Positions 1-64,000 of a DNA stretch of 64,000 bases are shown here, one piece after another. The notes under the pieces were generated by a model, which did no database searches, was not told the DNA's origin, and was given only the letters and a program-made list of their open reading frames with translations. Origin of the DNA: a virus (taxonomy: Duplodnaviria > Heunggongvirae > Uroviricota > Caudoviricetes); the IMG/VR virus record IMGVR_UViG_3300021426_000065, positions 103,173 to 167,172 of that record; one strand, given 5' to 3'. Both the position numbers and the translations under genes were made by a program. Position 1 is the stretch's first letter. Each line of letters begins with the position of its first letter.

Positions 1-2
1 TT

Positions 3-1361
3 GATGGAATTACTATTGGTGGATAGGTTGTATATTTTAGCCGTTCTGCCTCTTTACGCGCGGTTAATGCGAGTGTTTTGTTTAAGAATATTAAAGTTGA
101 AGAAGGAGATGCGGAAACCCCGTGGTGTCCAGCCGATAGTGAAATGAATATTGATAGAACTATTATTGAAGATAGTAGTGGATATAATCATAATGGTACT
201 ATTGTTGGCTCTGCTGTTTCCGCGGCCGATACCGCGCGATATGGTGTAAGCACGCATATAGATGGCGCTGGTGTTATTACCGCGACCTCTCCTGGCGCAG
301 ATATTCGTACATTAAGTTGTTGGGTAAAAACAACAAAAAATAAATCTACTTCTCAAATGCTTGTTGCTGATTCTGGTTCAAATATGTGTATTTCTTTTTA
401 TAGTGGAACAATTATTGGTGTGTTTGGTACTACACGAAGCACTGGCAGTAAATGCACGCTTGGGGCGTCTTATAAAGAAAATGATTGGAATCATATTGTA
501 GTCGTAAAAACAAGTGATGATGGTAAGCGTGACATCTACTGCAATGGAGAGAAGCTTACTCCTGCGGCGGATGATTATTGGAGCGCAACAGCCGGATTCT
601 TTGTTGGAAATAGAAATGGCACGGTTAGTGGAAATACCCCGTTCTTTGGATATATATCTGATGTTCGTGCGTATTGTACTCAATTACTTGACACAGACAT
701 AAAATAGTTGTATAATGTTGGTATGAAGGTGGATAAAAAATAGAATATTCACGCTTTTGAGTTTAATGAAACCGCGGGGAGAACATAGTTTTTAAAAACT
801 GGCGTAATAAAAAGTGCGCAAGTCGCAGATAATTTATTATTTGACAATAAAGCACATATTGGGAAGCATAGCTATGAAAATATATTGCCAAATAATGTAA
901 ATATAGTAACGACAAAAAATGGGCATATAACTAATCAAAACACACTTGCATCTATTCCCGCGGCAAAAATACAATCGCTCGCTGGAAAAACATTACGTTT
1001 TACTTATGATGTTAAAGCAGATGGTACTAGAAGTTCTGCTGAAAATAATCAAACAGCATGGAATTATATTAGATATGGAATACATGCTACTTTTTAGTAT
1101 ACAAATGCATCTGGTACTACTGGTACATCGTATCCATTTGCTGGTGATTTAGCATATAGCGGCGCGGCAAAACGTAGCACACAAACATGGACAGTTCCAG
1201 CCGGATATTAGTCATATGGGGCGTTAGGCTTTTCCATATAGACTTTTGATAAACCGGCATCTACAAATAATGAAACATGGTTTATATAGAATGTTAGATT
1301 AGAAGTTATAGATAATACAATTGATGGGTACATTACTGGTACTCAACTTATAGAAAAATAA
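3..1361 (+). CDS. Tail-fibre-like structural protein, 5' truncated by the window edge. The frame is open through several in-frame TAG codons and ends at TAA 1359-1361.
   Basis: One frame stays open across track ORFs 78..707 and 885..1097 and is interrupted only by TAG. Gly/Thr/Ser-rich fibre-like composition. A Shine-Dalgarno site and the ATG of the next gene follow. Confidence 0.55.
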
Positions 1362-1373
1362 GGAGGGAAATCA

Positions 1374-4300
1374 ATGGCGGTCTTAAAGGATACATTAGTG
1401 TAGGGAAGTGCAAGAGTCACTGATACCCTCTATACAACAAATATTGCGGGTGGCAAAATTATTTAGCCAATTACTTGGACCGCGGATGGCTTGCCAGAAA
1501 AAGGTAGCAGTGCAGAGTTTTTTCTCGCGATTGATTCTTTTTAGAATGGTGGAAAAACATATTGGGTAAGTAAGGCTAATACGTTAAGTGCTATCGGCGC
1601 GGCTACGAGTGGGCATAATCATAATACCACTTATTTAAGACTTGATGGCTCCAATATTATGACTGGTACATTAGCTATAAAACCAGCATCAGGTGAAGGT
1701 GGAGAATTACATTTGTGTGCATCTACTGCAAATGCAACAGAAGCCGGAATAGTTTTAGACCATTTAAGTAATTCTTTACGTATTTTTGGTATAGCTTCTG
1801 CAGATGGAACAACTAAAACCGGCGTTGGAACACCATTAGTTATTGATCCATATGCTAAGACAATTACTGGCGGCTATACAATTACTGGCGCATTAACAGG
1901 GCACGCTTCTAGCGATTTAGCTTTAACCGGCGGAAAAATGACTGGCCGTATTTATCGTGAAGGGGTTGCCTCAAATTGGCACAAAGGACGCGATAATTCA
2001 TTAGTAGCAATTAGTACTAAAAATGGTTATAGCCCATTAGCTTCAATGAAAACTACTAATGGCTCTTGGGAAATTGGTACTTATGATAATTCTTCTTTTA
2101 CAGACGACCTGTTATTTACATATATTACAGATACTTTATATAATGGTTCAACCGCAACAACGTCTGCTCAATTACGATTCTATGAAACTGGTGGGGCATT
2201 ATTTACTGGTTAGACTACTGTTGAGTATAATCCAAATGGCGTAAACGCTACTGCAAAAGGTATGATTAATTTAACCTCAAGCGCACCAGCAACTGTGGTG
2301 GTAAGTGGCACTTATTCTTGGGGTATTAATCATTTAGTTCCTAATTTAGCTAGCGGTGCCCATACATGTTTAATTACTGGTATGGGGGATAGTACAAACA
2401 ATTCTGCCGTACTAGAATTTAATTATGTAGGTTCCAATCACGCAGATAATAGTGTTGGCTTAGGATTATATGGTAATAATTAGTTATTAACAATTAATAA
2501 AGCCGGCACAGTAAAAATTAAAGCCACTACGGCATCAACCTCTTCTACAACTGGTGCACTGGTAGTTGGCGGCGGTATAGGTACTGGCGCGGCGTCATAT
2601 TTAACTGGTAGTGTTCATATTACGGGCACTGCAGGTAGCAATGCGCTTATAGTACGCGGAATTTCTGGGTGTTATGAAGATGGTAATCGTGGCGATCCAG
2701 CAACTCAACCAGAAAATACCGCTCTATATCTTAATTTAAATAATGGTCCAATATATCTTGGTAGCGGCTCTACTACTGCATCAGATGTTATATATATGCA
2801 ATATGCACAGGATGCTAGTTCTTCTGCTACTGGTGCGGTTCGTATTGGTGGTGGCTTGGGCGTAGCAAAAAAAATCTATGCTGGCTCTACTATAAGTGCT
2901 CCTAACTTTATTGCAACGCATACTGCTGGTGGTAGCAGCGAATTTAAAGTATAGTATAGTAGTACAATTAGTTATTGGTGGGGTGTTGGTACTGCTAATG
3001 AAAATCACGGTTTATATGATGATAAAGCAAATAAGTGGATTATACTTGCTGGCGCGGCTAATACTTGGAGTTTTGATGGAAATGCTACAACCGCGACAAC
3101 TGCTTCTAAATTAACAAATTTTAAAGTTACCACAAACACGAATCTCGGTGTTGATGCTCCTAGTACTAATGCTATTGGTTATGTTTCTGGTCTTACAAAA
3201 GCGAATTGGAACTATTAGCAAACTGATGGTTCATTATATACACAATTTTATAATGCTAGTTGGATTAGTGAAATATTCCAAGATTATAGAACTGGTTAGT
3301 TAAGCGTTCGCGGGAAAAATAATGGTACTTGGCAATCTTGGCGCAGAATTTTAGATGAAACTAATGGCGCAACTATTTTAGGATTAAGTAATTATCGTGC
3401 TAATACATAGCCAAAATCAGGGGCTTGGTTCACGGGTACACCAGTAGTCGGCACAGATGGTGTAACAGAAGTCGGTAAATATATAGATTTCCATAGCACT
3501 AATGATGGCACATCAGATTATGATGCTCGCATCACTGCTTCAACAAGTGGATTAACTCTTTCTGGCACTACAACTGGCACATTTAGTGGTAATTTAACTG
3601 GTAATGCAAGTGGCACCGCCTCAAATGTAACCGGCACTGTCACAACTACGCACGGTGGTACAGGAATTACAACCTACACTGTCGGTGATATTTTATATTG
3701 TAGTGCGGCTAATACATTATCAAAACTCGCAAAAGGCACAGCGGGCCAATTTTTGAAAATGGGTACTGCTAATGTACCAATATGGGGTGAGGGCAGTGAA
3801 GTTACTTTAAATGGTACCCCAACTACTACACCAAGTTTTTATGCCCCAACGTAGGGTGGAACAGCCAACCATATATTAAAATCTGGCGGCGTTGGCGCAG
3901 AACCAGTATGGGACCCAAATGTTACTGTTAATGCAAATGGTGGATTAAGCGCGACGACCATTTTTACAGATAATATTTATCAAAAAACGAGTTGGGCGAA
4001 TGGTGCTCCAACAACTAATCAATAGAAAGTAATGTTTGAATTAGATGATTCAACTGGTTCTAACTTAATTACATACTTTTATAATAGATATTATCCAGAT
4101 TCTACTACTTCTAGAACTGGCTTATAGGTCAGCGCGCCAATAGCCAATACTGAAACTACTACTTATTTTGAATTATCAATTAACGCAGATGGTACGACAA
4201 AACGCACTTATACTGACGCACAAATCTATGGTGCTGTATGGAACGACTATGCCGAATATCGTAAACAAGCATATAAAATAACCCCCGGCCACGTTGTAAT

Positions 4301-4646
4301 AGATTTGGATAATGGTTTGGTTATATAGACAGAATAGCGCTTAATGCCTGGCGCACAAGTAGTATCAGATACCTTCGGATTTGCTATTGGCGAAAATGAT
4401 GAGTGTAAAACTCCGCTCGCGGTTTCTGGTAGGGTACTTGTTTATCCATATCGTAATCGTTATGAATATCACGCTGGTATGGCAGTATGTTCTGCGCCGA
4501 ACGGTACAGTAGATATAATGACGCGAGAAGAAATAAAAGAATACCCAGATGCGATTGTTGGCATTGTTAGTGAGATACCACAATATGAAGAATGGGGCGA
4601 AAAACCAGTCAAAGTTGATGGGCGTATTTGGATTAAAGTAAAATAA
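1374..4646 (+). CDS. Large tail fibre or receptor-binding protein of about 1090 codons with at least 14 in-frame TAG sense codons.
   Basis: AAGGAGGG Shine-Dalgarno then ATG at 1374. Track ORFs 1659..2213, 2262..2483 and 4344..4646 share one frame and are separated only by TAG. Repetitive G/T/S-rich fibre motifs. Ends at TAA. Confidence 0.6.
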
Positions 4647-4715
4647 TTAAAATATTCAATTTATTTTATTATATACATACATATAAATAGGACAATAGTC
4701 CGAGGAGGTAATATT

Positions 4716-5066
4716 ATGTTAAAATTAGTTCTAAATGAAGATTTCGTGCATGGCATTGATATTGATAACTATAATCAATCTACCGTATTAAGCATTACTA
4801 ACTATTCCACCCATAGTACCAGTATTACTTTTGTAACTCGTGCAGATTCAATTGCTAACATTATGGCTTTTGAGAATACGCCAATTACTAGCCTACGTAT
4901 TCGTGATGACGCGGGAGAAACACTACTTAATCTAAATCTAGCAGATAAAAATGTATATGTACTAAATTATAACACTAACATTTATAATGGTGGACAGAAC
5001 ACAAGCGTTAGTCTTGGACAGGTTGCCGTGGCGGCGCCAGAAAATAGTGAAGGAGAAGGAGAATAA
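4716..5066 (+). CDS. Hypothetical protein.
   Basis: ORF with Shine-Dalgarno, TAA stop, followed by a terminator hairpin. Confidence 0.5.
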   Translation: MLKLVLNEDFVHGIDIDNYNQSTVLSITNYSTHSTSITFVTRADSIANIMAFENTPITSLRIRDDAGETLLNLNLADKNVYVLNYNTNIYNGGQNTSVSLGQVAVAAPENSEGEGE

Positions 5067-5083
5067 TCCTTCTCCTCTTTTTA
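5051..5083 (+). terminator. Rho-independent terminator hairpin.
   Basis: aggagaagga / tccttctcct stem followed by a T-run. Confidence 0.5.
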
Positions 5084-5095
5084 AGGGGTGATATT

Positions 5096-5299
5096 ATGGC
5101 GCATAAAATGACAAAACGTGGTAATATAGATAATGTAATTACTTACGAACATTTCTGTGATACCAAAGCCGACATGGCGGATATAGACCCAAATGAAATT
5201 AATCTTGGTTCTGTCTGCGTGGTTCTTGCTGATGAATCCGCAGGTGGAGCCTTAAACTTTTATCTTGCAAAATCTGATAAGACTTGGGTTCAAGCGTAA
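5096..5299 (+). CDS. Hypothetical protein.
   Basis: ORF with Shine-Dalgarno GGGGTGA, TAA stop. Confidence 0.45.
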   Translation: MAHKMTKRGNIDNVITYEHFCDTKADMADIDPNEINLGSVCVVLADESAGGALNFYLAKSDKTWVQA

Positions 5300-5311
5300 G
5301 GAGGGAATAGT

Positions 5312-7300
5312 ATGGATATAGTTGATATTATTCTCGCGCGCGCAAAGTCTTTTACAGGAGAAACCGCCACTCTAACTCGTCAAGCCCAGCAAGCCATGAC
5401 GGATGCTAATAATATTGTAGATACACTAAGCGATATTCAAGCCGACACAGAGGCCGCGAATACCGCCGCGAATGAGGCGTCTGCCAAAGCAACGGCAGCA
5501 GCCGCAGAGTTTGATGAAATGAAAGCAGACCTTGAAGCCGCGGCAGCCACATTAGTAGACGACCGCGTAGAATAGGCCATGGGCACAGCAACCGACGATA
5601 TTGCGGACTTACAAACCAGAACAACCGCATTAGAAAATCAAATTGAAAACGCCGGTGGCACCATTACTTTTACCGATAATAATACGGCCGCGGCAAAAAT
5701 TAAGCAAGCAAACGTAACCAAAAACGGCGCTACCACAACCTATGTTGTAGAAAAGAATTATACAACCTATGGCGATAATGAGGACGGCTCTATGACACAG
5801 AAGGCGATTAAAAATTACGTCTCTGATGTTAAATCTAATTTAGAAAGTCAAATCCGTACTTCTGGCGGTGGTGGAAACACTAACCTTGGTGATGATAATG
5901 CGGGCCAAGTGGTTATTGTTGGCCCAGATGGCAATATCACCGCTGGCGATACAACAGAATAGTCTATAATTGAAGCACTAATTCGCGCGGGCGTATACCA
6001 AGCGAAAAACGCAGTTGGCACTTCGATAGACTATGAAAATAAAAACATTGGCCGCACATAGGAAGCGACCGCGAATACAGATTTTAATGATTATATCATG
6101 TATAATGGCCGCAGACGTTGTAATGTAAATGATGACGGCATAATAACTGCGTTTTATGGCGATGCTAATTATAAAGAAGATGGCAGTAATGGACAAGTTA
6201 TGGTATATCAACCTAAGTTCTATTATCAGCGCATTCCAATTAATACTACTAATTCTATTGTCGGTAAAATTATTCGTAAAGAATCTTTAATTATTTCTGC
6301 GACCAAACAATCAGGCTTCAAACTACATCCCGCGTTTATAGATGAAAATGGCAACGAACTTGAATATATACTTATTTCTGCCTATGAAGGATGCGCTTAT
6401 GACACTTCCGCAGGAAGTTATATTAAAGATGACGCGGCTGGTATTGATTTCGCGGCCGATAAGTTATCTTCTATCGCCGGAGCTAAACCACTAAGCGGTG
6501 AAAAAAATAATTTAACAATCGCAAACGCAGAAAAATTAGCGCAAAACCGCGGAGACAGATGGCATATCACAAGCATTAAAGCATGTAGTGTAGACCAAAT
6601 GTTGGCTCTTGTAGAATATGGTACCTTTAATATACAAAACGCAATCGAGAACGGCGTTAGTTATCTTGAAAACTCATATACTGTAAATCGCGCTTGCATT
6701 ACTGGTTCTACCGCGGAGTTAGGCAATAGTTCTGGTGCGGCAACACGTAGTAGTAACCTTGTTAATGGCACAACAAACACATATGGAGAAGCAGGTAAAC
6801 GTTCCATTTCTTACCGTGGCGAAGAAAATCCATTCGGTAATATTTGGAAGTTCATCGGTGATGTCAATATCTTTGGTGACGGCAATGTGTAGGGCGGCGT
6901 TCCATATATTTGTAAAAATTATAATTACTCTGATTCTATTACTGCCGACTATGAAAGTGTTGGTATTAGCTTACCAAATACAAGCGATTGGATTTCTGGT
7001 ATGGGCTATGGCGATGAAAAATATGATTGGCTATTTATCCCAGCCGAAGCATCAAATGCAAATAGCGCTACGCCGATAAGCGACTATATTTGGATAACAA
7101 AAAATGTCAATAAGATTCAATCTATGGCGTTTGGCGGCGACTGGCTATTCACACAACGCAATGGCATGTTCTTCTATGCTTGCGACCGCGATATGGATTA
7201 CGCCGCGTCCACATTTGGCGCACGTCTTGTTTATATACCACTTAAAGATAGTGTCCATGATACTAACTATGCCCTATGGCGTAACAAAGTGGGAGGTTGA
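5312..7300 (+). CDS. Coiled-coil tail-fibre-like structural protein, about 660 codons, read through 4 in-frame TAG codons.
   Basis: Track ORFs 5312..5575, 5579..5962, 6098..6892 and 7001..7300 share one frame and are joined only across TAG. Shine-Dalgarno GGAGGG before 5312. Ends at TGA. Confidence 0.55.
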
Positions 7301-7305
7301 TAATT

Positions 7306-7551
7306 ATGATTAATTATGGCAAAGTATAGAGCTTGAATCAGCCTCAATCAACAGAAATTAAAGAAGATAAAGTATTTATAGCATCTAATATTACGCCCTA
7401 TACCACTACTGTTGAAGATAAAGAAGAAAGTGGATATGAATATGATTATGTTGAATACAGTAAAGATGAATACATAATGTTACTTTTTGAAAAGTCTCAA
7501 CAGCTTGAAGAAGAACTAGCCGCGGCAAAAGTTCTATTGGGGGTGGAGTAA
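7306..7551 (+). CDS. Small acidic protein with one in-frame TAG.
   Basis: GGGAGGT Shine-Dalgarno 8 nt upstream of ATG 7306. An in-frame TAG at 7327 precedes track ORF 7333..7551. Confidence 0.5.
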
Positions 7552-7554
7552 TAT

Positions 7555-7965
7555 ATGACATTACTTGAATTAGCGCGTAAATTACGCCCCTACATAGAGA
7601 AAGCCGCGCTTTCTCTTGATGACGCAGATGCATTAGAAGCACCAAACTTATTTCCTAATTGGACGGCGGATAAAGCAGATGGATATAAAGTAGATGAACG
7701 CGTAAGATATGACAATGTTTTATATAAATGCTTATAGGCCCATATACCACAAGAGGCGTGGACCCCAGTGGCCGCGACCAGCTTATGGGCAAAAGTATTA
7801 ATTCCGGATGAAAATACCATTTATAATTGGGAGCAACCAGAATCAACTAACGGCTATAAAATTGGCGATAAAGTTAGATTTGAAGGAAAAGTATATGAAT
7901 CTGTAATTGATAATAATATATGGTCTCCCGCCGGTTATCCTGCTGGATGGAAAGAAGTACCTTAA
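7555..7965 (+). CDS. Protein with a CBM5/12-like (chitin-binding type 3) carbohydrate-binding motif and one in-frame TAG.
   Basis: Track ORFs 7555..7737 and 7768..7965 share a frame. The sequence YKVDERVRYDNVLYKCL-TAG-AHIPQEAWTP resembles the ChtBD3 motif YKCLQPHT...W.P, placing TAG at a position that is Q in Bacillus ChiA1 (recalled from memory). Confidence 0.55.
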
Positions 7966-8451: not shown

Positions 8452-8523
8452 TGAGGTATGGCCAAGTCGGTAAGGCACGAGACTTTGACTCTCGGATCGT
8501 TGGTTCAAGTCCAGCTACCTCAG
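8452..8523 (+). tRNA. tRNA-Gln, anticodon UUG.
   Basis: Perfect 7-bp acceptor stem tgaggta/tacctca. Anticodon stem cgaga/tctcg with loop ctTTGac. T arm gttgg-ttcaagt-ccagc. Confidence 0.7.
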
Positions 8524-8529
8524 TTATAT

Positions 8530-8617: not shown

Positions 8618-8640
8618 GTAGTGCCCAACACGCCTCTTAA

Positions 8641-9010: not shown

Positions 9011-9017
9011 TTAATAT

Positions 9018-9046
9018 TTGACTTATAATAAAAATTATGTTATAAT
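9018..9046 (+). promoter_or_regulatory. Sigma-70 consensus promoter, family copy.
   Basis: TTGACT 9018-9023, TATAAT 9041-9046, 17-nt spacer. Confidence 0.55.
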
Positions 9047-54584: not shown

Positions 54585-55476
54585 TAAAAATGAATAAAGA
54601 AAATATTGTAGGACGATTTCACGGAAAAGAAGTATATGTGGTGCCAGATAAGAAATTAGATACAATCATTTTACCAGAATCATTGGCTAAATATATATTA
54701 GAATTACAAGATAATACAATTAAAAATGTAAATCAAACTCATCGAGGTAAACGCAGTAATCTTATAGGTTTTGTTAATAATAATTAGATTATTTGGTTTA
54801 ATATTTTGACTAATGAAATAGATAGAATAGAACAATTTGATGGGTGAAGTATGAAACTTATAATTTTAAAAATTACAGAGCCACATGGCTGGGTAATAGC
54901 TAATACCATTTGCGAAAAATATCCTTCATTTATAAAAGTCAATTATAGTGATGAAATATTTATTAATTCATTAACAGTTCCACAAACCACTTCATTAGAG
55001 GAGCTAAGTCAGGCCATAAAATATTGGTTTACTATAAGATTTAAAGAAAATAAACACTTATTAATATTAACTAATAAAACAGAAGAAGAGAATGTTAAGT
55101 TAATTGAAGTATTAAATAATATTAATTTAGATAATTATTGTATATTAATTTGTAACGATTTTATGAAAAAATATTTTAATAACAATTGACTTATTCCAAA
55201 ATTTATAATATAATATATTTATAAAAAGGAGAGAAATAAAATGGATAAAAATAATTCTACTAGTAGTGGTATTGGCTTTACTGGCCTACTTACAATAGTC
55301 TTTATTGTATTAAAACTATGTCATGTTATAGAATGGTCTTGGCTTTGGGTTCTTGCGCCTCTGTGGATTTCAACTATACTTGGATTAATTATTGTAATTA
55401 TCTATGCTATAATAGTAACAAAATAATTGACAATAATAAAAATTTATGATATAATATAAGAAATAAAGAAAAGGAA

Positions 55477-57864
55477 GTGAACCCATTGATTAAAGAAGTA
55501 GACTTCCAAAAAACTACTGAAAGTGCATTTTTAGCCTATGCCGCATCAGTTGCGCAGGAACGAGCAATTCCAGATGTAAGAGATATGCTTAAAATCGGTT
55601 TGCGGCAAGGTTTGTATGCACAATTTACAAATAAACTTACATATAAAGATAAGTATCAGAAAGCACAGAAAAGTGTTGCCGCAGCCATGACGCAATCATA
55701 TGTCCATGGTGATGTCGCGATGTATGATACATTTATTCGCGCAGCCCGCCCTTGGTCTTATCGTTATCCTCTTGAAGCGGTTCAAGGTAACTATGGTAAT
55801 CCATCTTCACCAGATAGCCACGCGGCCGCGCGTTATGTAGAAATGAAGGCGGCAGAAACCGCGAATATTCTTTTTGATGGATTAAAAAAGAACGCAATTG
55901 GAAATCAGAAATATTGGAATTATGATGATACAGAAGAAATTCCGTCTGTATTTCCTTCAATTGGATTTTGGAATATTGTAAATGGATGCTCTGGTATTGC
56001 GGTCGCTATGGCGACCTCTGTCCCGCAGTTTAATTTACGCGAAGTAAATGAAGCGCTTATTAAAATTATTCAAAATCCAGATATAGATTTTAATGAAATC
56101 TATTGTAAGCCCGACTTTGCAACTGGTGGCACAATTATAAATGCCGCGCAAGTAAAAGAAAGTCTACGTATTGGTAAGGGCGAATCAATTCGTTTACGCG
56201 CGAAGCTTGAATATTTTCCTGACCAGAATATGATTCAGGCAACAGAGCTACCATATGGTGTATTTACAAATACAGTAATTGACCAACTCGCGGCAGTAAC
56301 TAGTGAAAATGAAAGTTATGGAATTGAGCGCGTTGTAGACCATACAAAGAAAACCGCGGACATTCGTATTTATCTAACGAAGGGCACGAATCCAAGTAAG
56401 ATGATAGCAAAATTATATAAGGATACCTCATTAGAAAATTGGTATTCTGTAAATATGATTTTACTAGACCAGGGCAGATTTCCTAGACTATTTGGTTGGC
56501 GTGCGGCGTGCGATGCGTATATTGCACATATTCGTGAATGCGAACGCAATATCATTCAATTTGATTTAGATAAAGCCCTCGCGCGAAAAAATATCGTAGA
56601 TGGTTTAATTAAAGCATATTCAATTATTGATGAAGTTGTAGCACTTATTCGCGCATCTTCAAATCCAACCGAGGCCGCGGGAAAACTAATTTCAAAATAT
56701 GATTTTAATGAAGAGCAAGCCAAAGCAATTCTCGCTATGAAACTTTCTTCATTAACAAAATTAGATATAGTAAAGTTGAATAACGAGGCCGAAGAACTTA
56801 TTGAAAAAATTGAGTGGTGTCACCACTTATTAAATGATTCTACGGCTTTGGATAATGAATTAATTAAAATTTTGCGTGATGTTGCTACTAAATTTGGTGA
56901 TGAACGTAGAACAAAGATACTAAATATAGTAGAACAAGATGACGAATCAGCCGAACCAATTGAAGAAAAAGAATTGGGGATTATGTTATTTGACAATAAC
57001 ATGATTCGTCTAATTGAAAAAGATAACCTTCAAGGCGCGAAACGTGGCAGGAAGGGCATTAATATTAAGCCGCCAAAGAATGCGAATCTAATTAATACTT
57101 TGTATTCCACAAATCTTGGCACAATTGCAGCATTTACTGACCGCGGCAGAATGTATAGCTTCTCACTTGGAGACTTAGATACAGATAAAGATTATTCTAT
57201 TTATGAATTAATCGCGCTTCAAGATGATGAAAAGCCAATTCTATTAATTGATACAACTTCTTTAAACGCATATAAATATCTTATTACGATAAGTAAAAAT
57301 GGATTTATTAAAAAGACGTTGATTAAGGAATATAATAGTAGGAATAAGAAAGGTTTAGTCGCGGTAAAAATTGAAGATGATGATACACTTATAGGCGTAT
57401 ATCTATCTCATTCTGATAATGATAAAGTATTTGTTGGCAACGTAAATGGTTCTTATAATTATTATAATCTATCAGAAGTAAGCTCTACTGGACGCGCAAC
57501 GAAGGGCGTTAAAGCAATTAAATTAAGTAAAGATGAATATGTATCATGCGCTGCACTTATTAGAGAAAATATTACATATCGTGGCTTACTAACAATTTCT
57601 AGTTCTGGGCGTGGAAAAATTACTGAACTTGAAGAGTTTTCAGAAACTGCGCGTGGAGCAAAGGGCGCGGCAGTAATGAACTTAAAAGATGAACAACTCG
57701 CAGCAATGTGCGCAATTACAGATGAAATGGAAAAGATTTTCGTAACAGCTAATAATAAAGCGGTTCTGCTTGAAATAAATAGTATTCCAGTACAGGGCCG
57801 CAATACCGCTGGCGTTCAAATTATAGATGCGCGTAATTCTAATGCCGCAATTAAGATTATGTGA
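55477..57864 (+). CDS. Type II DNA topoisomerase DNA-cleavage subunit (GyrA or T4 gp52-like).
   Basis: Motif YVHGDVAMYDTFIRAARPWSYRYPLEAVQGNYGN. Confidence 0.7.
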   Translation: MNPLIKEVDFQKTTESAFLAYAASVAQERAIPDVRDMLKIGLRQGLYAQFTNKLTYKDKYQKAQKSVAAAMTQSYVHGDVAMYDTFIRAARPWSYRYPLEAVQGNYGNPSSPDSHAAARYVEMKAAETANILFDGLKKNAIGNQKYWNYDDTEEIPSVFPSIGFWNIVNGCSGIAVAMATSVPQFNLREVNEALIKIIQNPDIDFNEIYCKPDFATGGTIINAAQVKESLRIGKGESIRLRAKLEYFPDQNMIQATELPYGVFTNTVIDQLAAVTSENESYGIERVVDHTKKTADIRIYLTKGTNPSKMIAKLYKDTSLENWYSVNMILLDQGRFPRLFGWRAACDAYIAHIRECERNIIQFDLDKALARKNIVDGLIKAYSIIDEVVALIRASSNPTEAAGKLISKYDFNEEQAKAILAMKLSSLTKLDIVKLNNEAEELIEKIEWCHHLLNDSTALDNELIKILRDVATKFGDERRTKILNIVEQDDESAEPIEEKELGIMLFDNNMIRLIEKDNLQGAKRGRKGINIKPPKNANLINTLYSTNLGTIAAFTDRGRMYSFSLGDLDTDKDYSIYELIALQDDEKPILLIDTTSLNAYKYLITISKNGFIKKTLIKEYNSRNKKGLVAVKIEDDDTLIGVYLSHSDNDKVFVGNVNGSYNYYNLSEVSSTGRATKGVKAIKLSKDEYVSCAALIRENITYRGLLTISSSGRGKITELEEFSETARGAKGAAVMNLKDEQLAAMCAITDEMEKIFVTANNKAVLLEINSIPVQGRNTAGVQIIDARNSNAAIKIM

Positions 57865-58428
57865 GGTTAATAAAATGAAGAAAGAATATCAAGATTTATT
57901 TGTAGAGATGGCTCTATCAGCCGCGACATTGGCTGAAAGGGTTATGGACTATGATAAAAAGAAAAATGACAATAAAGGTTATGAAGTCGCTGAATCTATG
58001 CGTGATGATTATTTGGAACTTCATGGCAGACTAAAAGACGGTGGTATGCCTACTTATAATGATTATACAAAGCTACTTGCTGCGGCTTATATGATTACTA
58101 ATAATCTACAAGACCAAGTAACCATGTATCAAAAAGCAATTAATGGATATAAAACAGATACTATTCCTAAACTTTCTAGAATTATGGATGAAACGAAAAA
58201 TAATTCTGACGAATTTGAAAAATTAGTCCATCAATTATTTGACTAAAATAAAAATTCATGATATAATATAAATGTAAAGAAGAGCAAATGAAAATTCTTA
58301 AATATAAAACAGAATTAAATATTTGACTATTCTTTAAAAGTATGATATAATATGTATATAAAGAGGGAAGGGAAAACCTACCGCTTTAATATAAATAAAA
58401 TAAATAAATTTTTTAAAACAAAAGGAGA

Positions 58429-58797
58429 ATGATTATTATGACTCAGAATTCAGAACTCGTGCTAAATTATCTAAAGAAGAACTATGGTAGCGAATTTTCT
58501 AAGGCCCAGATTGCTGAGGCACTAGGTATTTCCGTTCCCGCCGTCACCGGTAGTCTAAATAGTCTAATTAAGAAGGGCTATGCAAGAAACACCCGCAGTG
58601 AGGAAGTTGTTGTAACCGAAGCCACTGAAACCCGTAAGGCCCAGATTAAGAACGTTCTATATCACACTCTAACCGAAGCTGGCCTATCTTATGACCCCGT
58701 TGCCGAGGAAGCCGAGAAGCTAGCGGCTAAGGAAGCCGCGAAGGCTGCTCGTGCCGCTGAGCGCGCTGCTGCCAAGGCCGCGAAGGAAAACGCCTAA
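58429..58797 (+). CDS. HTH protein with a C-terminal AKAA-repeat tail, histone-like.
   Basis: wHTH N terminus and C-terminal AAKEAAKAARAAERAAAKAAKE. Confidence 0.5.
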   Translation: MIIMTQNSELVLNYLKKNYGSEFSKAQIAEALGISVPAVTGSLNSLIKKGYARNTRSEEVVVTEATETRKAQIKNVLYHTLTEAGLSYDPVAEEAEKLAAKEAAKAARAAERAAAKAAKENA

Positions 58798-58945: not shown

Positions 58946-59836
58946 ATGAAAACACTAATGGATCAATCAACAAATAAGATAACAATTGTAGGCAAGCTTC
59001 TAGATGCAACTTTTAATAGCGGTAAGACCAAGACTGGTGTGCCATATGAGCGCGCAAATATCACAGTCCGTGTGGCTCAGCATTATGGCGACCATGATGA
59101 AGTAAGTGAAATCCCTGTAAGCATGTTTGCTTCTCAGTTCACGCAGAAGGGTACTCTTAATCCCGCGTGGCAGAGCATTTAGGATCTTCGTAAAATGAAG
59201 ACTGCTCAGGATCATGGCATTGACGGCGCGGATACAGTTCGTATTACTGGTGCGAATATTCGTGAAAATAACTTTGTATCCAAGAGTGGCCAGCTAATTA
59301 CCGGTTGGCAGATTAACACTTCTTTCGTTAATGCTGGCAATACTCCCGAAGTCGCATCTTTTATTCTAGATATTTTCATCATGGATATGACTGATGAACT
59401 TGACCGCGATGGCGATCCTACTGGTCGTTTAATTATCAAGGGCGCGCTAGTTCAGTATGGTGGTAAGCTTGATGTTCTACAATTTATTGTAGAAAATCCT
59501 GACGCGGTTGATTATATCAGCAGCCACTGGAATCCAAATGATACAAATACTGTAAAGGGTCGTATTCGTGTAACTTCTACCGAAGAGAAGTCTGCACCTT
59601 CTACAAGCTCTTGGGGCGAAGATGTTCCTGACACCACAACCCGTATGGTGCGTGAACTTATTATCACAAAGGGTGATGATGAAGGCAAAGAAGAAGACTT
59701 CGCGTATGACCCAGTTGAAATTAAGAAAGGGTTTAATGCCCGTAAGGCTGAAATTGAACAGCTACAAATTGATGCAAAGAACAAGAGCGCTGCTCCTGCT
59801 CCTGCCACAACCTCTAATAAGTATACCTGGGAGTAA
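58946..59836 (+). CDS. Putative single-stranded DNA-binding protein with one in-frame TAG.
   Basis: OB-fold-like N terminus KITIVGKL..., acidic C-terminal tail. Track ORFs 58946..59182 and 59195..59836 share a frame across TAG 59180. Confidence 0.45.
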
Positions 59837-59867
59837 TTCTCCCAGGTCATTTTAGGAGGGATGACAT

Positions 59868-61921
59868 ATGGCAAATATTGATATTTTTAATTTAGAGCCA
59901 AGTAAGATTAGCCGCGACCTAAAAGGTAAATTTTTATTGATTTACGGTCAGCCTAAATAATTTGGGCCTTATATAAGCGATTATATAAGATAATTACTGG
60001 AAAAATCTGGAAGCCTGAAATGGCAATCAGAGCGGAAGTTATTCCTTAAAAAGAATAACACGCACAACGATTAGGATAATTAAACATCCAAGGAGGGTTC
60101 TATCTATGGATATTACCGTTATTAAGCAATTATATGAAAACGACAAAAAAAGTTTGGCGTAGTTAAGTAAAGACACAGGAATTAGTGCTTATAGATTAAA
60201 AAAAATTCTACTAGCAGAAGGAATTCACATTAGAAGTAAAGAAGAGCAAAACAAGTATTCTCCATAGAATCAAAGAAAATATAAAATTTATGATGAGTTT
60301 TTTGATAATTTAAATCCAACTAATGTCTATCTTATTGGATTTCTTGCCGCTGATGGTAGTATTCAAAAAGACGGCGGAATAAAAATTGGTTTATCTACTA
60401 TTGATAAATCATTTTTAGAACAAATAAAATTACTACTTAATAGTAATTATCCAATTAGAGATTATATTACTAAAGATGGATTTTCTATTTCAGAATTTAT
60501 TTTTAGAAGTGAAAAAATAAAACAAAAATTAAGTGAATTTGGTATTGTAAATAATAAGACAAAAACCTTTCAGTTTCCTTATAATTTACCAAAAGAATTT
60601 TATATTGACTTTATTCGCGGTTATTTTGATGGGGATGGAACATTTTGTACGGCTGGGCAATATTGTCGAGCTTCATTATGTGGATACAATAAACAATTTT
60701 TACAGGACGTTGTTGATATTCTTGAAAATCAATACAATATTCCAAAAGTAAAAATACAAAAAGATTCACGCGGCAATACTTATTATTTCCAATATTCTCA
60801 AACTTCTGCAAAAAAATTATATGAACTTTTTTATCAAAATCATCCAAAACTTTACTTGACTCGTAAATATGAAAAATGCTTACAACTCTTTGGTGAAATA
60901 ACATCCCACGAGCCAGTAACTTCTCAAGAAGAAGAAAAGATAATCTGACCTTATACGAATAATAAGTATAAGAATTATCGGATAAAAAGCCGATAAGATA
61001 ACATAAGTGAAGACTGGCAAGTCAACATTTGGTTCTTAGTTGCCTCGCGCATTATTCCTTAACTTTGAATAGGGTACAAATGCATTAGCCGGTATTCGCG
61101 GTGTGCCAATTCTTCGTTGGACGGACTTTAAGAAGGTATTAAGTCAGCTACGTAAACCATAGGCACGCGAAATGTATGATAGCATCGTTGTTGATACTGC
61201 TTCTATTGCTTGGCAGCTTTGTGAAGATTATATCAAGCAACGCGAATCAGTCGATTCTATTAGAGACATTCCTTGGGGCCAAGGATGGGGAATGGTTAAG
61301 AATGAGTTCTCTGAATGCTGGCGTGAGATTACCCTACTAGGATTTGGTATCCTATTTATTGCACACAGTAAAGAAAAGCCAACCGAAATGCGAGATGAAG
61401 AGGGTAATCCGATTACTGCGGTCGCGCCAGACCTACCAAATAATGCTTATACAATTATAAATAGTATTGTAGACATTATTGGTTATCTACAAGTTCAAAT
61501 GAACGCGGACGGAACAACAGAGCGTTATTTGTATACACGTTCTACTCCAACGATTTTCGCGGGTTCAAGGTATTAGTATCTAGCACCTAAAATCGCATTT
61601 GGTTATAAGGAGCTTGTAGATGCAATTGGTGAAGCAATTGACCAAGCGGTTACAAAAGACGGAGCAGAAGTAACTGACCATACTGAAATCGCTCAGGTTA
61701 AGGCGCGTCCATTCCAAGAAGTTATGGAAGAAGCTAAGCAAATCTGGATTCATTATTTGGATATGGCTACAAATGATGAAGAAAAAGACCAGCACGCAAA
61801 TATTATGCGAGATATTATTAAACGAGTATTTGGTTCAGAGGATTTCAAACTCAGCCAGGCTGTACCTTCTCAAACTGACCTCGTTGAATTGTTTATAGAT
61901 GAAATGAAAGATTTAATGTAA
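59868..61921 (+). CDS. AAA_24 (Sak4-like) recombination ATPase gene split by a group I intron. Exon 1 is 59868-59954 and exon 2 is 61010-61921. The intron (59955-61009) carries a LAGLIDADG ORF. Exon 2 contains 4 in-frame TAG codons.
   Basis: Exon 1 ends FLLIYGQP. Exon 2 begins KTGKSTFGSQLPRALFLNFEQG, rebuilding the Walker A GQPKTGKS only after splicing. The intron ends in G. A GGGC internal guide lies 9 nt inside the intron, opposite the exon end GCCU. Walker B IVVDTASI follows downstream. Confidence 0.5.
60106..60948 (+). CDS. Intron-encoded LAGLIDADG homing endonuclease with two motifs and 2 in-frame TAG codons.
   Basis: LIGFLAADGS and IRGYFDGDGT. Shine-Dalgarno AAGGAGGG then ATG 60106. 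Confidence 0.7.
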
Positions 61922-61941
61922 GCTTATCTGCTATGCGGAGA

Positions 61942-61975
61942 GGACGTTTCAAATTAAGAAACGTCCTTGTTTTAT
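61942..61975 (+). terminator. Rho-independent terminator.
   Basis: Stem ggacgtttc-aaattaa-gaaacgtcc followed by a T-rich tail. Confidence 0.55.
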
Positions 61976-62025
61976 TTGACTTTCTTTTAAACTTGTGTTA
62001 TAATAATTATAGAGGTGAAATATAA

Positions 62026-62505
62026 ATGGATAGTAAAAGATGTTGGAAATGTCATGATAATTTTCGTAAAGACGAATTAATTGATTATTGCGCGCCCGGA
62101 TATAAAACTTATCATAGTTATTGTAAGAAATGTTTAAAAGAACAGCAAGATTTTGATGCATTAAAATTGAAAATTGTTTCTATATTTGGTAACGACCAGA
62201 AATTATGGCCGCGAATAATGAAAGATAGAAAACGAATAATAATGCAATATGGTTATACAGATAATACTATTAGCGATTGTCTAGATTATTTATATAATGT
62301 TTTAAAATTAAAGGTACTATCTAAATCTTTATGTTTAGTGACACCTACAAATGTAGAAAAAATGAAGCAGTATAAAAGGCAGCAAAGTGCAGCGGCCGGA
62401 CAATTAGCAGCGGCAGCCGCGATAGAAATTGTAGAAAAGCCTGTATCAATACGGGAAAATATAGATGAGGAACAAGAAGAAAATCTTGATGAATGGTTTG
62501 AATGA
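62026..62505 (+). CDS. Zinc-finger hypothetical protein.
   Basis: CWKCH...CKKC. Promoter copy at 61976. Confidence 0.5.
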   Translation: MDSKRCWKCHDNFRKDELIDYCAPGYKTYHSYCKKCLKEQQDFDALKLKIVSIFGNDQKLWPRIMKDRKRIIMQYGYTDNTISDCLDYLYNVLKLKVLSKSLCLVTPTNVEKMKQYKRQQSAAAGQLAAAAAIEIVEKPVSIRENIDEEQEENLDEWFE

Positions 62506-62517
62506 GAGGGGATTTAA

Positions 62518-64000
62518 TTGGTTTTATCAGATACAGCAGCACAGCGAGCAATCGTTGGAGCGTTAATCCATAATCCACTTCTCTTTTTGGAATATCCAGA
62601 TTTAACCCCAGCCGATTTTGATTTAGAGATTGCACGAAGGTGCATGGGTGTTATTAGGTATTTATATACGCAAGGAGCAAAAACATTAACTCCCGCGGAA
62701 GTAGACCAGGAGTTTGCTAGACGTGATAAAATATATAGCTCTTACGAAAGAGAAGGCGGATTAGAGTATTTAAAGAATGCGTATGAATATGCTTCTTCAT
62801 CAGGAAGTAACTTTGATATGTATTATCAACGATTAAAGAAATATTCATTGCTTCGTAGATTAAAAGCAGATAAATATGACATTAGTGATTATTATATAGA
62901 TGATAAAGAAAATGATGACCCATTAAAAGAAGTAAAAACATTAGAAAGATTTAATAACGCAACACTTGAAGAGATTTTAAATACAGTAGAAAGTAAATAT
63001 AATATAATCAGAAATGATTATTTGAATGGCGGAAAAGCAAAAGGAGACCCAGCAGAAGGCATCTTCGCCTTAATAGATAGATTAAAGCAAAGTCCAGATA
63101 TTGGACCAAACTTAGAAGGAAAATTATTTAATTACGCATGTCGCGGCGCGAGAGAAGGATGTTTCTTCTTAAAATCAGCAAGTACGAATGCAGGTAAAAC
63201 AAGAACTTCGGTATTCGACGCTTGTAGATTAGCATATCCAATTAAATGGTCGCATGAAAAAAATACTTTTGTTCAAGAAGCAGATAGCGTGACAGGAGAA
63301 ATATATAAGCCAAGAAAAGTATTATTTATTGTAACGGAGATGGATAAAGAAGAACTGCAAACAATTATGTTGGCTTATCTATCCGGTGTTAATGAAGACC
63401 ATATACTTCGCGGCGAATATGAATTGGGCGAAGAACAGCGCGTTAGATATGCTGGGAAAATTATAGAAAAATATAGTGGATATTTTATAATTGAAGAAAT
63501 TAGTGAACCTAATCTTGTAAATGTTGAAGCAACAATTAGAAAATATGCTACATTAGATAAAGTAAAATATATTTTCTTTGACTATATTCACACAACTGCG
63601 AGTATGGTCAATGAATTTGCAAAAAATAATTTAAGAGAAGATACGATTTTAATGATGATGGCAAATCAGTTAAAATAGGTTGCCAAAGATTATAATGTTT
63701 TTATTTTCTCCGCGACTCAGGTTAATGCAATGGCAATGGGTGACGATGGAGAATTTAAAAATGAGATGTGTATTCGCGGCAGTAAGGCAGTAGCTGATAA
63801 GTGCGATATGGGTTATGTAATGACGCGAGTCAGTGAACAAACATGGCAAAAGTTGCTTCCTAATTTTCGTATGGCTGTGCGCGAAGGCATTATAAGTAGT
63901 AAATATTTAGAAGATGATAGTAAACCAACTCATGTTATTGACATCTATAAAATGCGCCGCGGACGTTTTAAGAACGTAAGGATTTGGTTGAATCTACATT
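62518..64000 (+). CDS. DnaB-like replicative helicase, 3' truncated by the window edge, with at least one in-frame TAG (at 63676).
   Basis: DnaB N-terminal domain, Walker A SASTNAGKTRT, motif SATQVN after the TAG. Confidence 0.6.

What the first reader, a model, noticed from the sequence alone, without database searches (positions are those of the whole stretch)
1..64000. TAG is a sense codon across the whole genome, not only in late genes
At least 25 genes keep one reading frame through in-frame TAG codons (for example 1374-4646 with at least 14, 39731-42124 with about 27, 5312-7300, 20490-21146, the ClpP-like gene, the DnaB-like helicase, the SSB-like gene, the LAGLIDADG ORF and the HNH ORF). 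Every genuine stop I checked is TAA or TGA and none is TAG. A candidate suppressor tRNA sits in the tRNA island. Recoding is usually described for late genes of crAss-like or Lak phages, whereas here early and replication genes also carry TAG. The only hint for the inserted amino acid is weak: TAG falls at the ChiA1 ChtBD3 Q position (YKCL-Q-PH) at 7735, and the suppressor tRNA shape is class II, which argues against Gln.
Basis: seen in the sequence. Interest (0 to 1): 0.8.

Follow-up and report, generated by a model that had tools for sequence, protein, structure and literature searches.

The report
Phage reads TAG as glutamine
This rumen phage fragment reads the stop codon TAG as glutamine, which is a known phage trick, but the tRNA that does it must first splice out an intron and carries an extra arm that imitates the anticodon loop of a normal glutamine tRNA.

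Summary
With only TAA and TGA as stops, long + strand genes appear that carry in-frame TAG: 67 TAG codons in 21 of 70 credible genes, and no gene ends at TAG. Alignment with IMG/VR relatives shows TAG behaves as glutamine, not serine, so this is genetic code 15, a known kind of phage recoding.

"Across the whole genome" is overstated. TAG supplies 31-47% of Gln codons in the tail genes and in two unknown genes. It supplies 11% in the replication module and only about 4% in two large nucleic-acid-metabolism blocks. Both topoisomerase II subunits and the DNA ligase have none.

The suppressor tRNA exists at 14538-14806. Standard tRNA scans miss it because a 177-nt group I intron interrupts its anticodon. 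A near-consensus sigma-70-type promoter sits directly upstream.

However, its extra arm is a covariation-supported hairpin whose 7-nt loop reads YUCUGAR, which is a tRNA-Gln (CUG) anticodon-loop look-alike. Phage UCA (opal) suppressors have the same architecture with a Trp-like (CCA) loop, and cross-combinations are almost absent. I found no description of this in the literature I could search.

The parts
144..7965 (+). Tail and fibre module, TAG-rich. Genes: 144-1361 (7 TAG, Laminin_G_3), 1374-4646 (14 TAG), 5312-7300 (4 TAG, phrog_5302 tail protein), 7306-7551 (1), 7555-7965 (1, CBM_5_12; TAG at 7735 on the conserved Q).
   Evidence: TAG is 27 of 83 Gln codons.
14496..14524 (+). Near-consensus sigma-70-type promoter (TTGACT, 17-nt spacer, TG-TATAAT) ending 13 nt before the suppressor tRNA.
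   Evidence: It is one of 28 such sites on the + strand, against 2 on the - strand and 1.7 expected from shuffles.
14538..14572 (+). Suppressor tRNA(CUA), 5' exon. It ends ...CCGGUCUCU, that is, after U35 of the anticodon.
   Evidence: Local aragorn -i run, coordinates, and alignment to intronless homologues (A2).
14573..14749 (+). A 177-nt group I intron inside the anticodon of the suppressor tRNA. It has no ORF.
   Evidence: Rfam Intron_gpI gives 49.3 bits (gathering score 50), E 8.4e-12, with the full model matched. P1 has a U.G pair at the splice site and the intron ends in G. Relatives L027, L086 and L010 lack exactly these 177 nt.
14750..14806 (+). Suppressor tRNA(CUA), 3' exon. It contains the rest of the anticodon loop, the long variable arm, the T arm, the acceptor 3' strand, G73 and an encoded CCA. 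The mature tRNA is 92 nt.
14760..14772 (+). Variable-arm hairpin CAC-CUCUGAA-GUG. Its 7-nt loop copies a tRNA-Gln (CUG) anticodon loop.
   Evidence: Of 48 distinct homologues, 47 have a YTCTGAR loop. Stem covariation is 0.817 against 0.165 in shuffles.
8452..20431 (+). tRNA island. ARAGORN finds 17 tRNAs. Rfam adds Met(CAU) 9837-9909 and Cys(GCA) 18870-18940. Two genes are intron-split: Leu(UAA) 13305-14116 and Sup(CUA). tRNA-Gln(UUG) is at 8452-8523.
20490..21146 (+). Gene of unknown function, 218 aa with 7 TAG (47% of its Gln codons).
21208..39716 (+). TAG-poor block A with 7 TAG in 5865 codons. It encodes polynucleotide kinase, a phosphoesterase, a DUF2828/DUF7788 protein that PHROGs (phrog_850) labels RNA-binding, a nucleotidyltransferase, RNA ligase, RNase H, dNMP kinase, DNA ligase, a ClpP-like protein (1 TAG) and PhoH.
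   Evidence: Sigma-70-like promoters lie at 21151, 22759, 24760, 27731, 32698 and 35127.
39731..42124 (+). Gene of unknown function, 797 aa with 16 TAG (31% of Gln codons). It has no promoter-like site of its own and directly follows PhoH.
42213..58797 (+). TAG-poor block B with 5 TAG in 5246 codons. It encodes nucleoside 2-deoxyribosyltransferase (2 TAG), two Xan_ur_permease genes, a DnaD-like protein, a methyltransferase-like protein and both topoisomerase II subunits (0 TAG).
58946..64000 (+). Replication module with intermediate TAG use: 8 TAG in 1532 codons, 11% of Gln codons.
   Evidence: Promoter-like sites lie at 58887 and 61976.

Best explanation
The window is part of a large, uncultured rumen phage that uses genetic code 15, in which TAG encodes glutamine and only TAA and TGA terminate.

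Decoding is carried out by a phage-encoded amber suppressor tRNA (anticodon CUA) at 14538-14806. This gene sits behind its own near-consensus host-type promoter. It is interrupted between U35 and A36 by a 177-nt self-splicing group I intron, so a working anticodon exists only after splicing.

The mature tRNA has a Gln-like acceptor end (A1.C72 mismatch, G73, encoded CCA). It also has a long variable arm whose hairpin loop (CUCUGAA) copies the anticodon loop of tRNA-Gln(CUG).

TAG use is graded:
- about one third of Gln codons in the tail genes and in two unknown genes, apparently at the expense of CAG;
- about a tenth in the replication module;
- almost none in two blocks of nucleic-acid-metabolism genes that lie behind host-type promoters.

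Inferred, not shown:
- TAG-free genes can be translated at once with host machinery.
- TAG-bearing genes must wait for the spliced, charged suppressor tRNA, giving a delay that scales with TAG load.
- The extra arm helps the glutamine-charging system of the host accept a tRNA whose real anticodon is no longer Gln-like.
For: TAG is a sense codon:
- ORFs of 1095 and 799 codons exist only when TAG is read through. Chance is 6e-27 and 8e-20.
- There are 67 in-frame TAG in 21 of 70 genes, and no TAG stop.
- TAG lies inside Pfam, PHROG or PDB-aligned regions.

TAG is Gln:
- Residues aligned with TAG in 83 related loci are Q in 109 of 385 cases (9.6x background). Next come R, H and K. S is 0.63x, L 0.87x and Y 0.31x.
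- 40 of 83 conserved columns are Q.
- In orthologues at 60-98.5% identity, TAG pairs with TAG 664 times, Q 479, K 73, E 40 and S 23. This matches the substitution profile of Q itself.

Suppressor tRNA and intron.

Promoter.

Graded use: (tail 32.5%, replication 11.3%, blocks A and B 4.2% and 3.5% of Gln codons; tail against block A p=2.9e-9). CAG falls to 11 of 83 Gln codons in the tail genes, against 72 of 168 in block A.

Extra arm:
- 47 of 48 distinct class II CUA tRNAs have a YTCTGAR loop, against 0 of 78 Ser/Leu/Tyr tRNAs.
- All 8 class II CUA tRNAs obtained without any pattern constraint have it.
- The stem is supported by covariation, with 0 of 500 shuffles reaching the observed score.
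- In pattern scans, the anticodon and the arm loop co-vary. CUA with a CUG-like loop gives 59 tRNAs and UCA with a CCA-like loop gives 14. CUA with a CCA-like loop gives 1 and UCA with a CUG-like loop gives 0.
- The host contigs gain ORF cover under the matching code.
Against: - There is no protein-level evidence. The inserted amino acid is inferred from alignments, which are also biased by the one-step CAG to TAG mutation path.
- A class II tRNA with G73 could in principle be a SerRS substrate. A crude similarity test of the tRNA against phage tRNAs of known anticodon was inconclusive.
- The Rfam intron score (49.3) is just below the curated threshold (50), and splicing was not shown.
- Expression timing is inferred only from gene function and promoter-like motifs.
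- TAG-bearing genes (replication module, 20490-21146, 39731-42124) lie downstream of host-type promoters, so a simple early/late split does not hold.
- The arm-as-identity-element idea has a geometric problem. In known class II tRNAs the variable arm is far from where the synthetase holds the anticodon (general structural knowledge, not tested here).
- Only 64 kb of the genome is seen. A second suppressor, a release factor or a synthetase could lie outside.
Confidence: 0.8

Rival explanations
1. TAG is decoded as serine, or as a Ser/Gln mixture. The only suppressor seen is class II with G73, which resembles the tRNA-Ser identity set, and SerRS ignores the anticodon.
For: The tRNA has class II shape and G73. 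The nearest matches by crude similarity include Ser tRNAs. One conserved window position (5312-7300, aa 88) aligns with S.
Against: - S is depleted opposite TAG: 0.63x background and 23 of 1584 cases in close orthologues.
- Strictly conserved Q sites carry TAG, for example the CBM_5_12 'CLQAH' site with 31 Q and 6 TAG.
- Phage Ser tRNAs have G1-C72, whereas the suppressors have weak or mismatched 1:72 pairs.
- The arm is a short hairpin with a conserved 7-nt loop, unlike Ser arms; 0 of 35 Ser tRNAs carry the motif.
Confidence: 0.06
2. TAG is Gln, but its uneven distribution has no regulatory role. It reflects history: modules of different origin or age, or drift of CAG to TAG in fast-evolving tail genes once a suppressor is always present.
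For: - The suppressor has a strong host-type promoter and so may be present from the start.
- TAG also occurs in promoter-proximal replication genes.
- Tail and fibre genes are the most divergent, with few homologues.
Against: - There is a ten-fold difference in TAG share between blocks of similar composition. Off-frame TAG is 14-31 per 1000 in all blocks, whereas in-frame TAG ranges from 1 to 32 per 1000.
- The same bias to structural and lysis genes recurs in unrelated recoded phage clades (Borges et al., 10.1101/2021.08.26.457843).
- The homing-endonuclease ORF inside an early gene is recoded here, as also reported there.
Confidence: 0.3
3. The CUG-like hairpin in the variable arm is a relic of how these tRNAs arose, for example by duplication of an anticodon arm. 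Alternatively it serves something other than aminoacylation, such as processing, modification or a decoy for anticodon nucleases.
For: - The two loops differ by one base, CUCUAAA against CUCUGAA.
- The variable arm of known class II tRNAs points away from the anticodon-binding domain of the synthetase (general knowledge).
Against: - The loop sequence is kept while the stems and the rest of the tRNA diverge widely.
- The loop switches to CCA exactly in UCA suppressors, whose D arm (TAGTGTAAYGGCAGCACA) is visibly shared with CUA suppressors (sequences; no formal comparison was run). A relic should decay and should not track the reassigned amino acid.
Confidence: 0.35
4. The in-frame TAGs are pseudogene lesions, assembly errors or ordinary leaky stops in a standard-code phage.
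For: None found.
Against: - There are 14-16 TAG per gene with no TAA or TGA.
- The same positions hold TAG or Gln codons in independent metagenome contigs.
- A dedicated CUA tRNA is present.
- No gene ends in TAG.
Confidence: 0.01

Closest known systems
Code-15 (TAG to Gln) recoded phages: crAss-like, Lak, and the Jade, Sapphire, Agate and related clades of Borges et al. (bioRxiv 10.1101/2021.08.26.457843). Experimentally validated in crAss-like phages (PMC9523058).
   Same: TAG is read as Gln. A phage-encoded CUA tRNA is present. TAG is concentrated in structural genes, and nucleic-acid-metabolism genes are largely compatible with the standard code. An intron-borne homing endonuclease is recoded. 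No TAG stops are used.
   Different: There is no close sequence relative: the best GenBank phage match for the topoisomerase is 33% aa identity. Replication genes behind host-type promoters carry TAG here. The suppressor is class II, intron-split and carries a CUG-like arm, none of which is described in those papers as far as I could read.
Phage phAss-1 and the proposed Phassvirus genus (PMC10607447; OQ749652.1), NCBI 'Caudoviricetes code 15 clade'.
   Same: A large phage (136 kb) with a big tRNA island, TAG read as Gln in virion genes and in some DNA-processing genes, and no dedicated synthetase. It is a distant topoisomerase II homologue (32% identity).
   Different: The one suppressor copy I looked at, in the 46 kb fetched, is class I (annotated as 74 nt, 77 nt by ARAGORN), with no intron and no extra arm. 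The paper reports three suppressor genes; I did not find the other two.
Bacterial tRNA group I introns: cyanobacterial and plastid tRNA-Leu(UAA), Azoarcus tRNA-Ile, Agrobacterium tRNA-Arg. Recalled from memory (Reinhold-Hurek and Shub 1992); not re-read here.
   Same: A small ORF-less group I intron lies in the anticodon loop, with a U.G pair at the 5' splice site and a terminal G. The window also has the classic tRNA-Leu(UAA) insertion after U34.
   Different: The host gene is a phage amber suppressor, and the insertion lies within the anticodon triplet (U35|A36). The intron is only 177 nt. I found no report of a group I intron in a suppressor tRNA gene. tRNA 'introns' in alternatively coded jumbo phages are mentioned only generically (PMC13037316).
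Theta (HDV-like) ribozymes next to phage suppressor tRNAs (PMC10879173).
   Same: A catalytic RNA is physically coupled to maturation of the recoding tRNA, suggesting control of the code switch at the level of tRNA processing.
   Different: A different ribozyme class (group I intron inside the tRNA, against a cleaving ribozyme beside it) and a different processing step (anticodon-loop splicing, against end processing).
Classical E. coli amber suppressors charged by GlnRS, supE (tRNA-Gln CUA) and su7 (tRNA-Trp CUA). Textbook knowledge.
   Same: A CUA anticodon combined with a weak 1:72 pair and G73 gives Gln insertion.
   Different: Those are class I tRNAs. The phage tRNA adds a second, CUG-bearing hairpin in the variable region.

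Membership tests
Genetic code 15 phage (TAG to Gln) | Conserved genes keep their frame through in-frame TAG | tested here: met
Genetic code 15 phage (TAG to Gln) | TAG positions align with Gln in homologues | tested here: met
   9.6x enrichment; 40 of 83 conserved columns; profile equals that of Q.
Genetic code 15 phage (TAG to Gln) | TAG is not used as a terminator | tested here: met
   0 of 69 complete credible genes end in TAG. Two ambiguous small ORFs have a TAG close to their end: the HNH ORF 13507-13998 and 35995-36213.
Genetic code 15 phage (TAG to Gln) | A tRNA with anticodon CUA is encoded | tested here: met
   14538-14806, found only when introns are allowed. It was missed by the default ARAGORN and Rfam runs.
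Genetic code 15 phage (TAG to Gln) | Gln is found at TAG positions in the protein | not testable with these tools
   Needs proteomics.
Group I intron (Rfam RF00028) | Match to the covariance model at the curated threshold | tested here: inconclusive
   49.3 bits against a gathering score of 50. E is 8.4e-12 in a 341-nt search, and the full model 1-253 is aligned. It was not reported in the 64-kb or 12-kb searches.
Group I intron (Rfam RF00028) | U.G pair at the 5' splice site in P1 and a terminal G | tested here: met
   cmscan alignment. Boundaries are CUCU|A...G|AAAACC.
Group I intron (Rfam RF00028) | Precise absence from homologous genes (intron-less alleles) | tested here: met
   Alignment A2 shows a clean 177-nt gap in L027, L086 and L010.
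Group I intron (Rfam RF00028) | Self-splicing activity | not testable with these tools
   Needs an in vitro splicing assay or RNA-seq.
Class II tRNA of Leu or Tyr type | Discriminator A73 (textbook identity rule; also seen in phage Leu and Tyr tRNAs here) | tested here: not met
   The window tRNA has G73. Phage Leu and Tyr tRNAs have A73.
Class II tRNA of Ser type | G1-C72 with G73 and a long variable arm without a conserved loop sequence | tested here: not met
   The window tRNA has an A1.C72 mismatch. The family shows weak 1:72 pairs. The arm loop is conserved, and 0 of 35 Ser tRNAs share it.
tRNA-Gln identity (GlnRS rules from E. coli, textbook) | Weak 1:72 pair, G73, U35 | tested here: met
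tRNA-Gln identity (GlnRS rules from E. coli, textbook) | G36 in the anticodon and a class I (short variable loop) shape | tested here: not met
   The anticodon is CUA and the variable region is 21 nt. A CUG triplet is present only in the arm loop.
tRNA-Gln identity (GlnRS rules from E. coli, textbook) | Charged with Gln by GlnRS, or by non-discriminating GluRS plus GatCAB | not testable with these tools
   Needs an aminoacylation assay. The host and its Gln pathway are unknown.

The most novel reading that the evidence does not exclude
Phage stop-codon suppressor tRNAs of this widespread class II type carry, in their variable arm, a functional copy of the anticodon stem-loop of the tRNA whose amino acid they deliver. 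CUA suppressors carry CUG (Gln) and UCA suppressors carry CCA (Trp). This second 'identity anticodon' would let anticodon-reading host enzymes (GlnRS or the GluRS/GatCAB route; TrpRS) accept a tRNA whose decoding anticodon has been changed. In the window phage the system is additionally gated by a self-splicing intron inside the decoding anticodon.
Probability: 0.35. Interest if true: 0.88.

Novelty: new variant of a known kind. Interest (0 to 1): 0.62.

Why it matters
Recoding of TAG to Gln in phages is established, so the headline finding is a new member of a known kind. Two things make this case more useful than that.

First, the suppressor gene is invisible to default tRNA finders because an intron splits its anticodon. 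Published surveys detect suppressors in only about 40-60% of recoded phages and speculate about non-canonical tRNAs (10.1101/2021.08.26.457843; PMC13037316). Intron-split genes are one concrete cause, and they are easy to screen for.

Second, how host synthetases come to charge phage suppressors with Gln or Trp is named as an open question in that literature. A conserved, covarying hairpin that copies the cognate anticodon loop, and that switches from CUG to CCA together with the decoding anticodon, turns that question into a simple mutational experiment. It could also give a design rule for engineered suppressor tRNAs.

Tried and rejected
- Default ARAGORN and Rfam scans and a hairpin scan for CUA loops found no suppressor. 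I briefly considered near-cognate reading by tRNA-Gln(UUG). I dropped that idea when the intron-aware run found the gene.
It is not.
- PDB sequence searches for the DnaB-like and deoxyribosyltransferase proteins gave nothing. Only the ClpP alignment was informative.
- A homologue search for the 16-TAG gene 39731-42124 gave an identical database entry already translated with Q, plus one 26% relative. Pfam and PHROGs gave nothing. Its function stays unknown.
- Assigning an isotype to the suppressor by pairwise similarity to phage tRNAs was inconclusive, with scores of 0.25-0.31 and mixed isotypes.
- An 'unbiased' pattern scan without the arm motif was swamped by chance matches. Only 2 real CUA tRNAs were found, both of other types. 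It therefore cannot give the frequency of the arm motif among all class II suppressors.
- phAss-1 was checked as a possible published example of the arm. The suppressor copy found there is class I.
- Rfam found no group I model in the intervening sequence of the AAA_24 gene, and only a weak partial hit in the tRNA-Leu intron.
- Walking along the 82-kb near-identical contig (L001) to see the rest of the genome was judged too costly in scans and was not done.


Full report
**1. What the window is.**
The window is 36.6% G+C, and nearly all genes lie on the + strand behind strong AGGAGG ribosome-binding sites. No GenBank phage is close: the best topoisomerase II match is 33% aa identity. IMG/VR holds contigs at 99% identity (L001, L004, L012) and many relatives at 50-80% identity. 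These include contigs of 140-190 kb, whose sample identifiers I take to be rumen metagenomes; the sources were not looked up. The window is therefore a piece of a large uncultured rumen phage. Only part of the genome is visible.

**2. Is TAG a sense codon?**
Yes.
- When only TAA and TGA stop translation, + strand ORFs of 1095 codons (14 TAG) and 799 codons (16 TAG) appear. So do several others.
- The probability of frames that long being free of TAA and TGA by chance is 6e-27 and 8e-20.
- ORFs of at least 100 codons cover 74% of the window under table 11 and 88% when TAG is sense.
- Among 70 credible genes outside the tRNA island, 21 carry 67 in-frame TAG.
- 49 genes end in TAA, 20 in TGA and none in TAG.
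39731-42124 has 16 TAG, not about 27. Both topoisomerase II genes and the DNA ligase have none.

**3. Which amino acid?**
I translated TAG as X and compared window proteins with ORFs of 83 related loci.
- Residues opposite TAG are Q in 109 of 385 cases, which is 9.6 times background. R, H and K follow.
- S, L and Y are depleted.
- Counting each position once, 40 of 83 well-conserved columns are Q.
- In orthologues of 60-98.5% identity, TAG pairs with TAG 664 times, Q 479, K 73, E 40 and S 23. This is the same profile that Q itself shows.
- A public database already holds the 797-aa protein translated with Q.

TAG is therefore Gln, genetic code 15.

**4. Is it genome-wide?**
No, use is graded.

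| Region | TAG share of Gln codons |
|---|---|
| Tail module | 32.5% |
| 20490-21146 (unknown) | 47% |
| 39731-42124 (unknown) | 31% |
| Replication module 58946-64000 | 11% |
| Block 21208-39716 | 4.2% |
| Block 42213-58797 | 3.5% |

- The two low blocks encode RNA repair, nucleotide metabolism, permeases and topoisomerase.
- Tail against block A gives p=3e-9.
- Off-frame TAG is equally common everywhere, so the difference lies in the coding frame.
- In the tail genes TAG seems to replace CAG. CAG is 11 of 83 Gln codons there, against 72 of 168 in block A.
- The + strand holds 28 near-consensus TTGACT-17-TATAAT sites. The - strand has 2, and 1.7 are expected by chance.
- These sites precede the TAG-poor blocks, the tRNA island and the replication module. 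None lies directly upstream of the TAG-rich genes at 1374, 5312 or 39731.
- However, the overall picture is the published one: structural genes are heavily recoded and many early genes are standard-code compatible (10.1101/2021.08.26.457843; PMC10607447).

**5. The suppressor tRNA.**
- Default ARAGORN, Rfam and a hairpin scan found no CUA tRNA.
- Relatives, however, carry an 86-97-nt CUA tRNA in the island.
- Running ARAGORN with introns allowed found the window gene at 14538-14806, with a 177-nt insertion.
- The insertion matches Rfam Intron_gpI over the whole model: 49.3 bits against a threshold of 50, E 8e-12.
- The model places a U.G pair at ...CUCU|A, and the intron ends in G.
- Intronless homologues lack exactly these 177 nt.
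- The splice site lies between U35 and A36, so the anticodon itself is assembled by splicing.
- A TTGACT-17-TG-TATAAT site ends 13 nt upstream of the gene.
- The 99%-identical contig L012 has the same intron. No other locus fetched does.

**6. Why class II, if Gln?**
- The mature tRNA (92 nt) has an A1.C72 mismatch, G73 and an encoded CCA.
- In the family, 1:72 is typically weak or mismatched and position 73 is G. Phage tRNA-Gln looks the same.
- Phage Ser tRNAs (G1-C72) and Leu and Tyr tRNAs (A73) look different.
- The 'variable arm' is a short hairpin with a 7-nt loop. The window has CAC-CUCUGAA-GUG.
- 47 of 48 distinct family members have YUCUGAR, against 0 of 78 Ser/Leu/Tyr tRNAs.
- The 8 members obtained through the tail-protein search, with no motif constraint, all have it.
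- The stem covaries: score 0.817 against 0.165 in shuffles, 0 of 500 shuffles reach it, and slid controls are at most 0.14.
- YUCUGAR is what a tRNA-Gln(CUG) anticodon loop looks like. It differs from the real loop, CUCUAAA, by one base.

I then asked whether opal suppressors do the same with Trp.
- A scan for UCA-anticodon tRNAs with UCCAA in the arm returned 14 real class II tRNAs whose arm loop reads NUCCAAA, the tRNA-Trp loop. By eye, several of them have Trp-like A1-U72 and G73 ends (sequences).
- The cross-combinations are nearly empty. CUA with UCCAA gave 1 tRNA in a complete scan of the collection. UCA with UCUGA gave 0.
- Contigs with the UCA type gain ORF cover when TGA is sense. Contigs with the CUA type gain when TAG is sense.

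Caveats:
- The loop 5-mer was part of the search patterns.
- A motif-free scan was uninformative.

**7. Mechanism.**
Shown:
- TAG is a sense codon that behaves as Gln.
- A dedicated CUA tRNA gene is present.
- A group-I-like intron lies in its anticodon.
- A promoter-like site lies upstream of it.
- TAG use is graded across modules.
- The tRNA has a conserved arm that resembles an anticodon loop.

Inferred:
- Host RNA polymerase transcribes the tRNA early.
- Splicing and charging then permit translation of TAG-bearing genes, with a delay that grows with TAG load.
- The arm helps Gln-specific charging.

The last step is the weakest. I know of no structure in which a variable arm reaches the anticodon-binding domain of a synthetase, so a relic or another function remains plausible.

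**8. Literature.**
Searches found the known framework of code 15, suppressor tRNAs, theta ribozymes and generic 'tRNA introns' in jumbo phages. They found no description of a group I intron in a suppressor tRNA or of an anticodon-like variable arm. The library is incomplete, so novelty is provisional.

**9. Verdict.**
- The phenomenon is a new member of a known kind.
- The way the suppressor tRNA is built looks like a new variant worth an experiment.

Noticed in passing
window 13305-14116: tRNA-Leu(UAA) is split after U34 by a 726-nt intron that carries an HNH endonuclease ORF (13507-13998). The 99%-identical contig L012 has the intact 86-nt gene, L014 has the same 726-nt intron, and L009/L086 have a 198-nt intron at that site. 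The intron is therefore polymorphic among close relatives.
   Followed up: partly
window 59868-61921: The AAA_24 (Sak4-like) ATPase gene is interrupted inside its Walker A codons (GQP|KTGKST) by a 1055-nt intervening sequence, probably an intron. This sequence encodes a LAGLIDADG endonuclease with 2 in-frame TAG. The boundaries end in T and G as in group I introns, but Rfam gives no group I hit.
   Followed up: partly
window, + strand, 28 sites from 688 to 61976: There are 28 near-consensus sigma-70-type promoters (mostly TTGACT-17-TATAAT, often with an upstream TG) on the + strand, against 2 on the - strand and 1.7 expected. Almost all are intergenic. This suggests heavy reliance on the host RNA polymerase.
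   Followed up: partly
IMG/VR loci, e.g. L351, L380, L392: Class II tRNAs with anticodon UCA (labelled 'SeC' by ARAGORN, but with 7/5 stems) have a variable-arm loop that copies the tRNA-Trp anticodon loop (NUCCAAA). They sit in contigs that gain ORF cover when TGA is sense.
   Followed up: partly
L512 7800-7892 (IMGVR_UViG_3300028805_000058): This is the single exception to the pairing rule: a CUA-anticodon tRNA on a Trp-type scaffold with a GUCCAAAG arm loop. It could be a recent anticodon switch or a phage reading TAG as Trp.
   Followed up: no
L094, L116, L145, L160, L161, L173, L193, L194, L195, L201: Some contigs carry two adjacent CUA tRNAs, one class II (about 91 nt, with the CUG-like arm) and one class I (75-78 nt, U1.C72 mismatch, G73).
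   Followed up: no
window 14120-14268: Two adjacent 'Leu' tRNAs (anticodons CAA and UAG) are only 74-75 nt long, that is, class I in shape, although bacterial tRNA-Leu is normally class II. The pair is conserved in relatives (L009, L012, L014, L018, L023).
   Followed up: no
window 10100-10169: A tRNA-like sequence (Rfam tRNA, 35.8 bits) has normal acceptor, D and T arms, but its anticodon arm folds as 6 bp with a 4-nt loop. ARAGORN calls the L014 counterpart 'tRNA-??? (gg)'.
   Followed up: no
window 12546-12655 and 12909-13028; 21208-29021: There are sub-threshold Rfam hits to YrlA (Y RNA-like, 32.9 bits), cow-rumen-3 RNA (60.2 bits) and DUF3800-XI RNA inside the tRNA island. Downstream lie a polynucleotide kinase, a phosphoesterase, a DUF2828/DUF7788 protein (phrog_850, which PHROGs labels RNA-binding), a nucleotidyltransferase and an RNA ligase. 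Together these look like an RNA-repair module; a Y-RNA partnership is a guess that was not tested.
   Followed up: no
window 43221-45798: Two tandem Xan_ur_permease (nucleobase transporter) genes occur in a phage. PHROGs labels one of them 'tail protein' (phrog_27398), which looks like a mis-annotation.
   Followed up: partly
window 144-7965 compared with 21208-39716: In the tail genes CAG is rare (11 of 83 Gln codons) while TAG is common (27). CAG plus TAG together make the same share as in the TAG-poor block (about 46-47%). TAG therefore seems to have replaced CAG specifically.
   Followed up: partly
P0001: A public protein collection already holds the 797-aa product of 39731-42124 with Q at all 16 TAG positions. 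Some pipeline has therefore called this gene under code 15.
   Followed up: no
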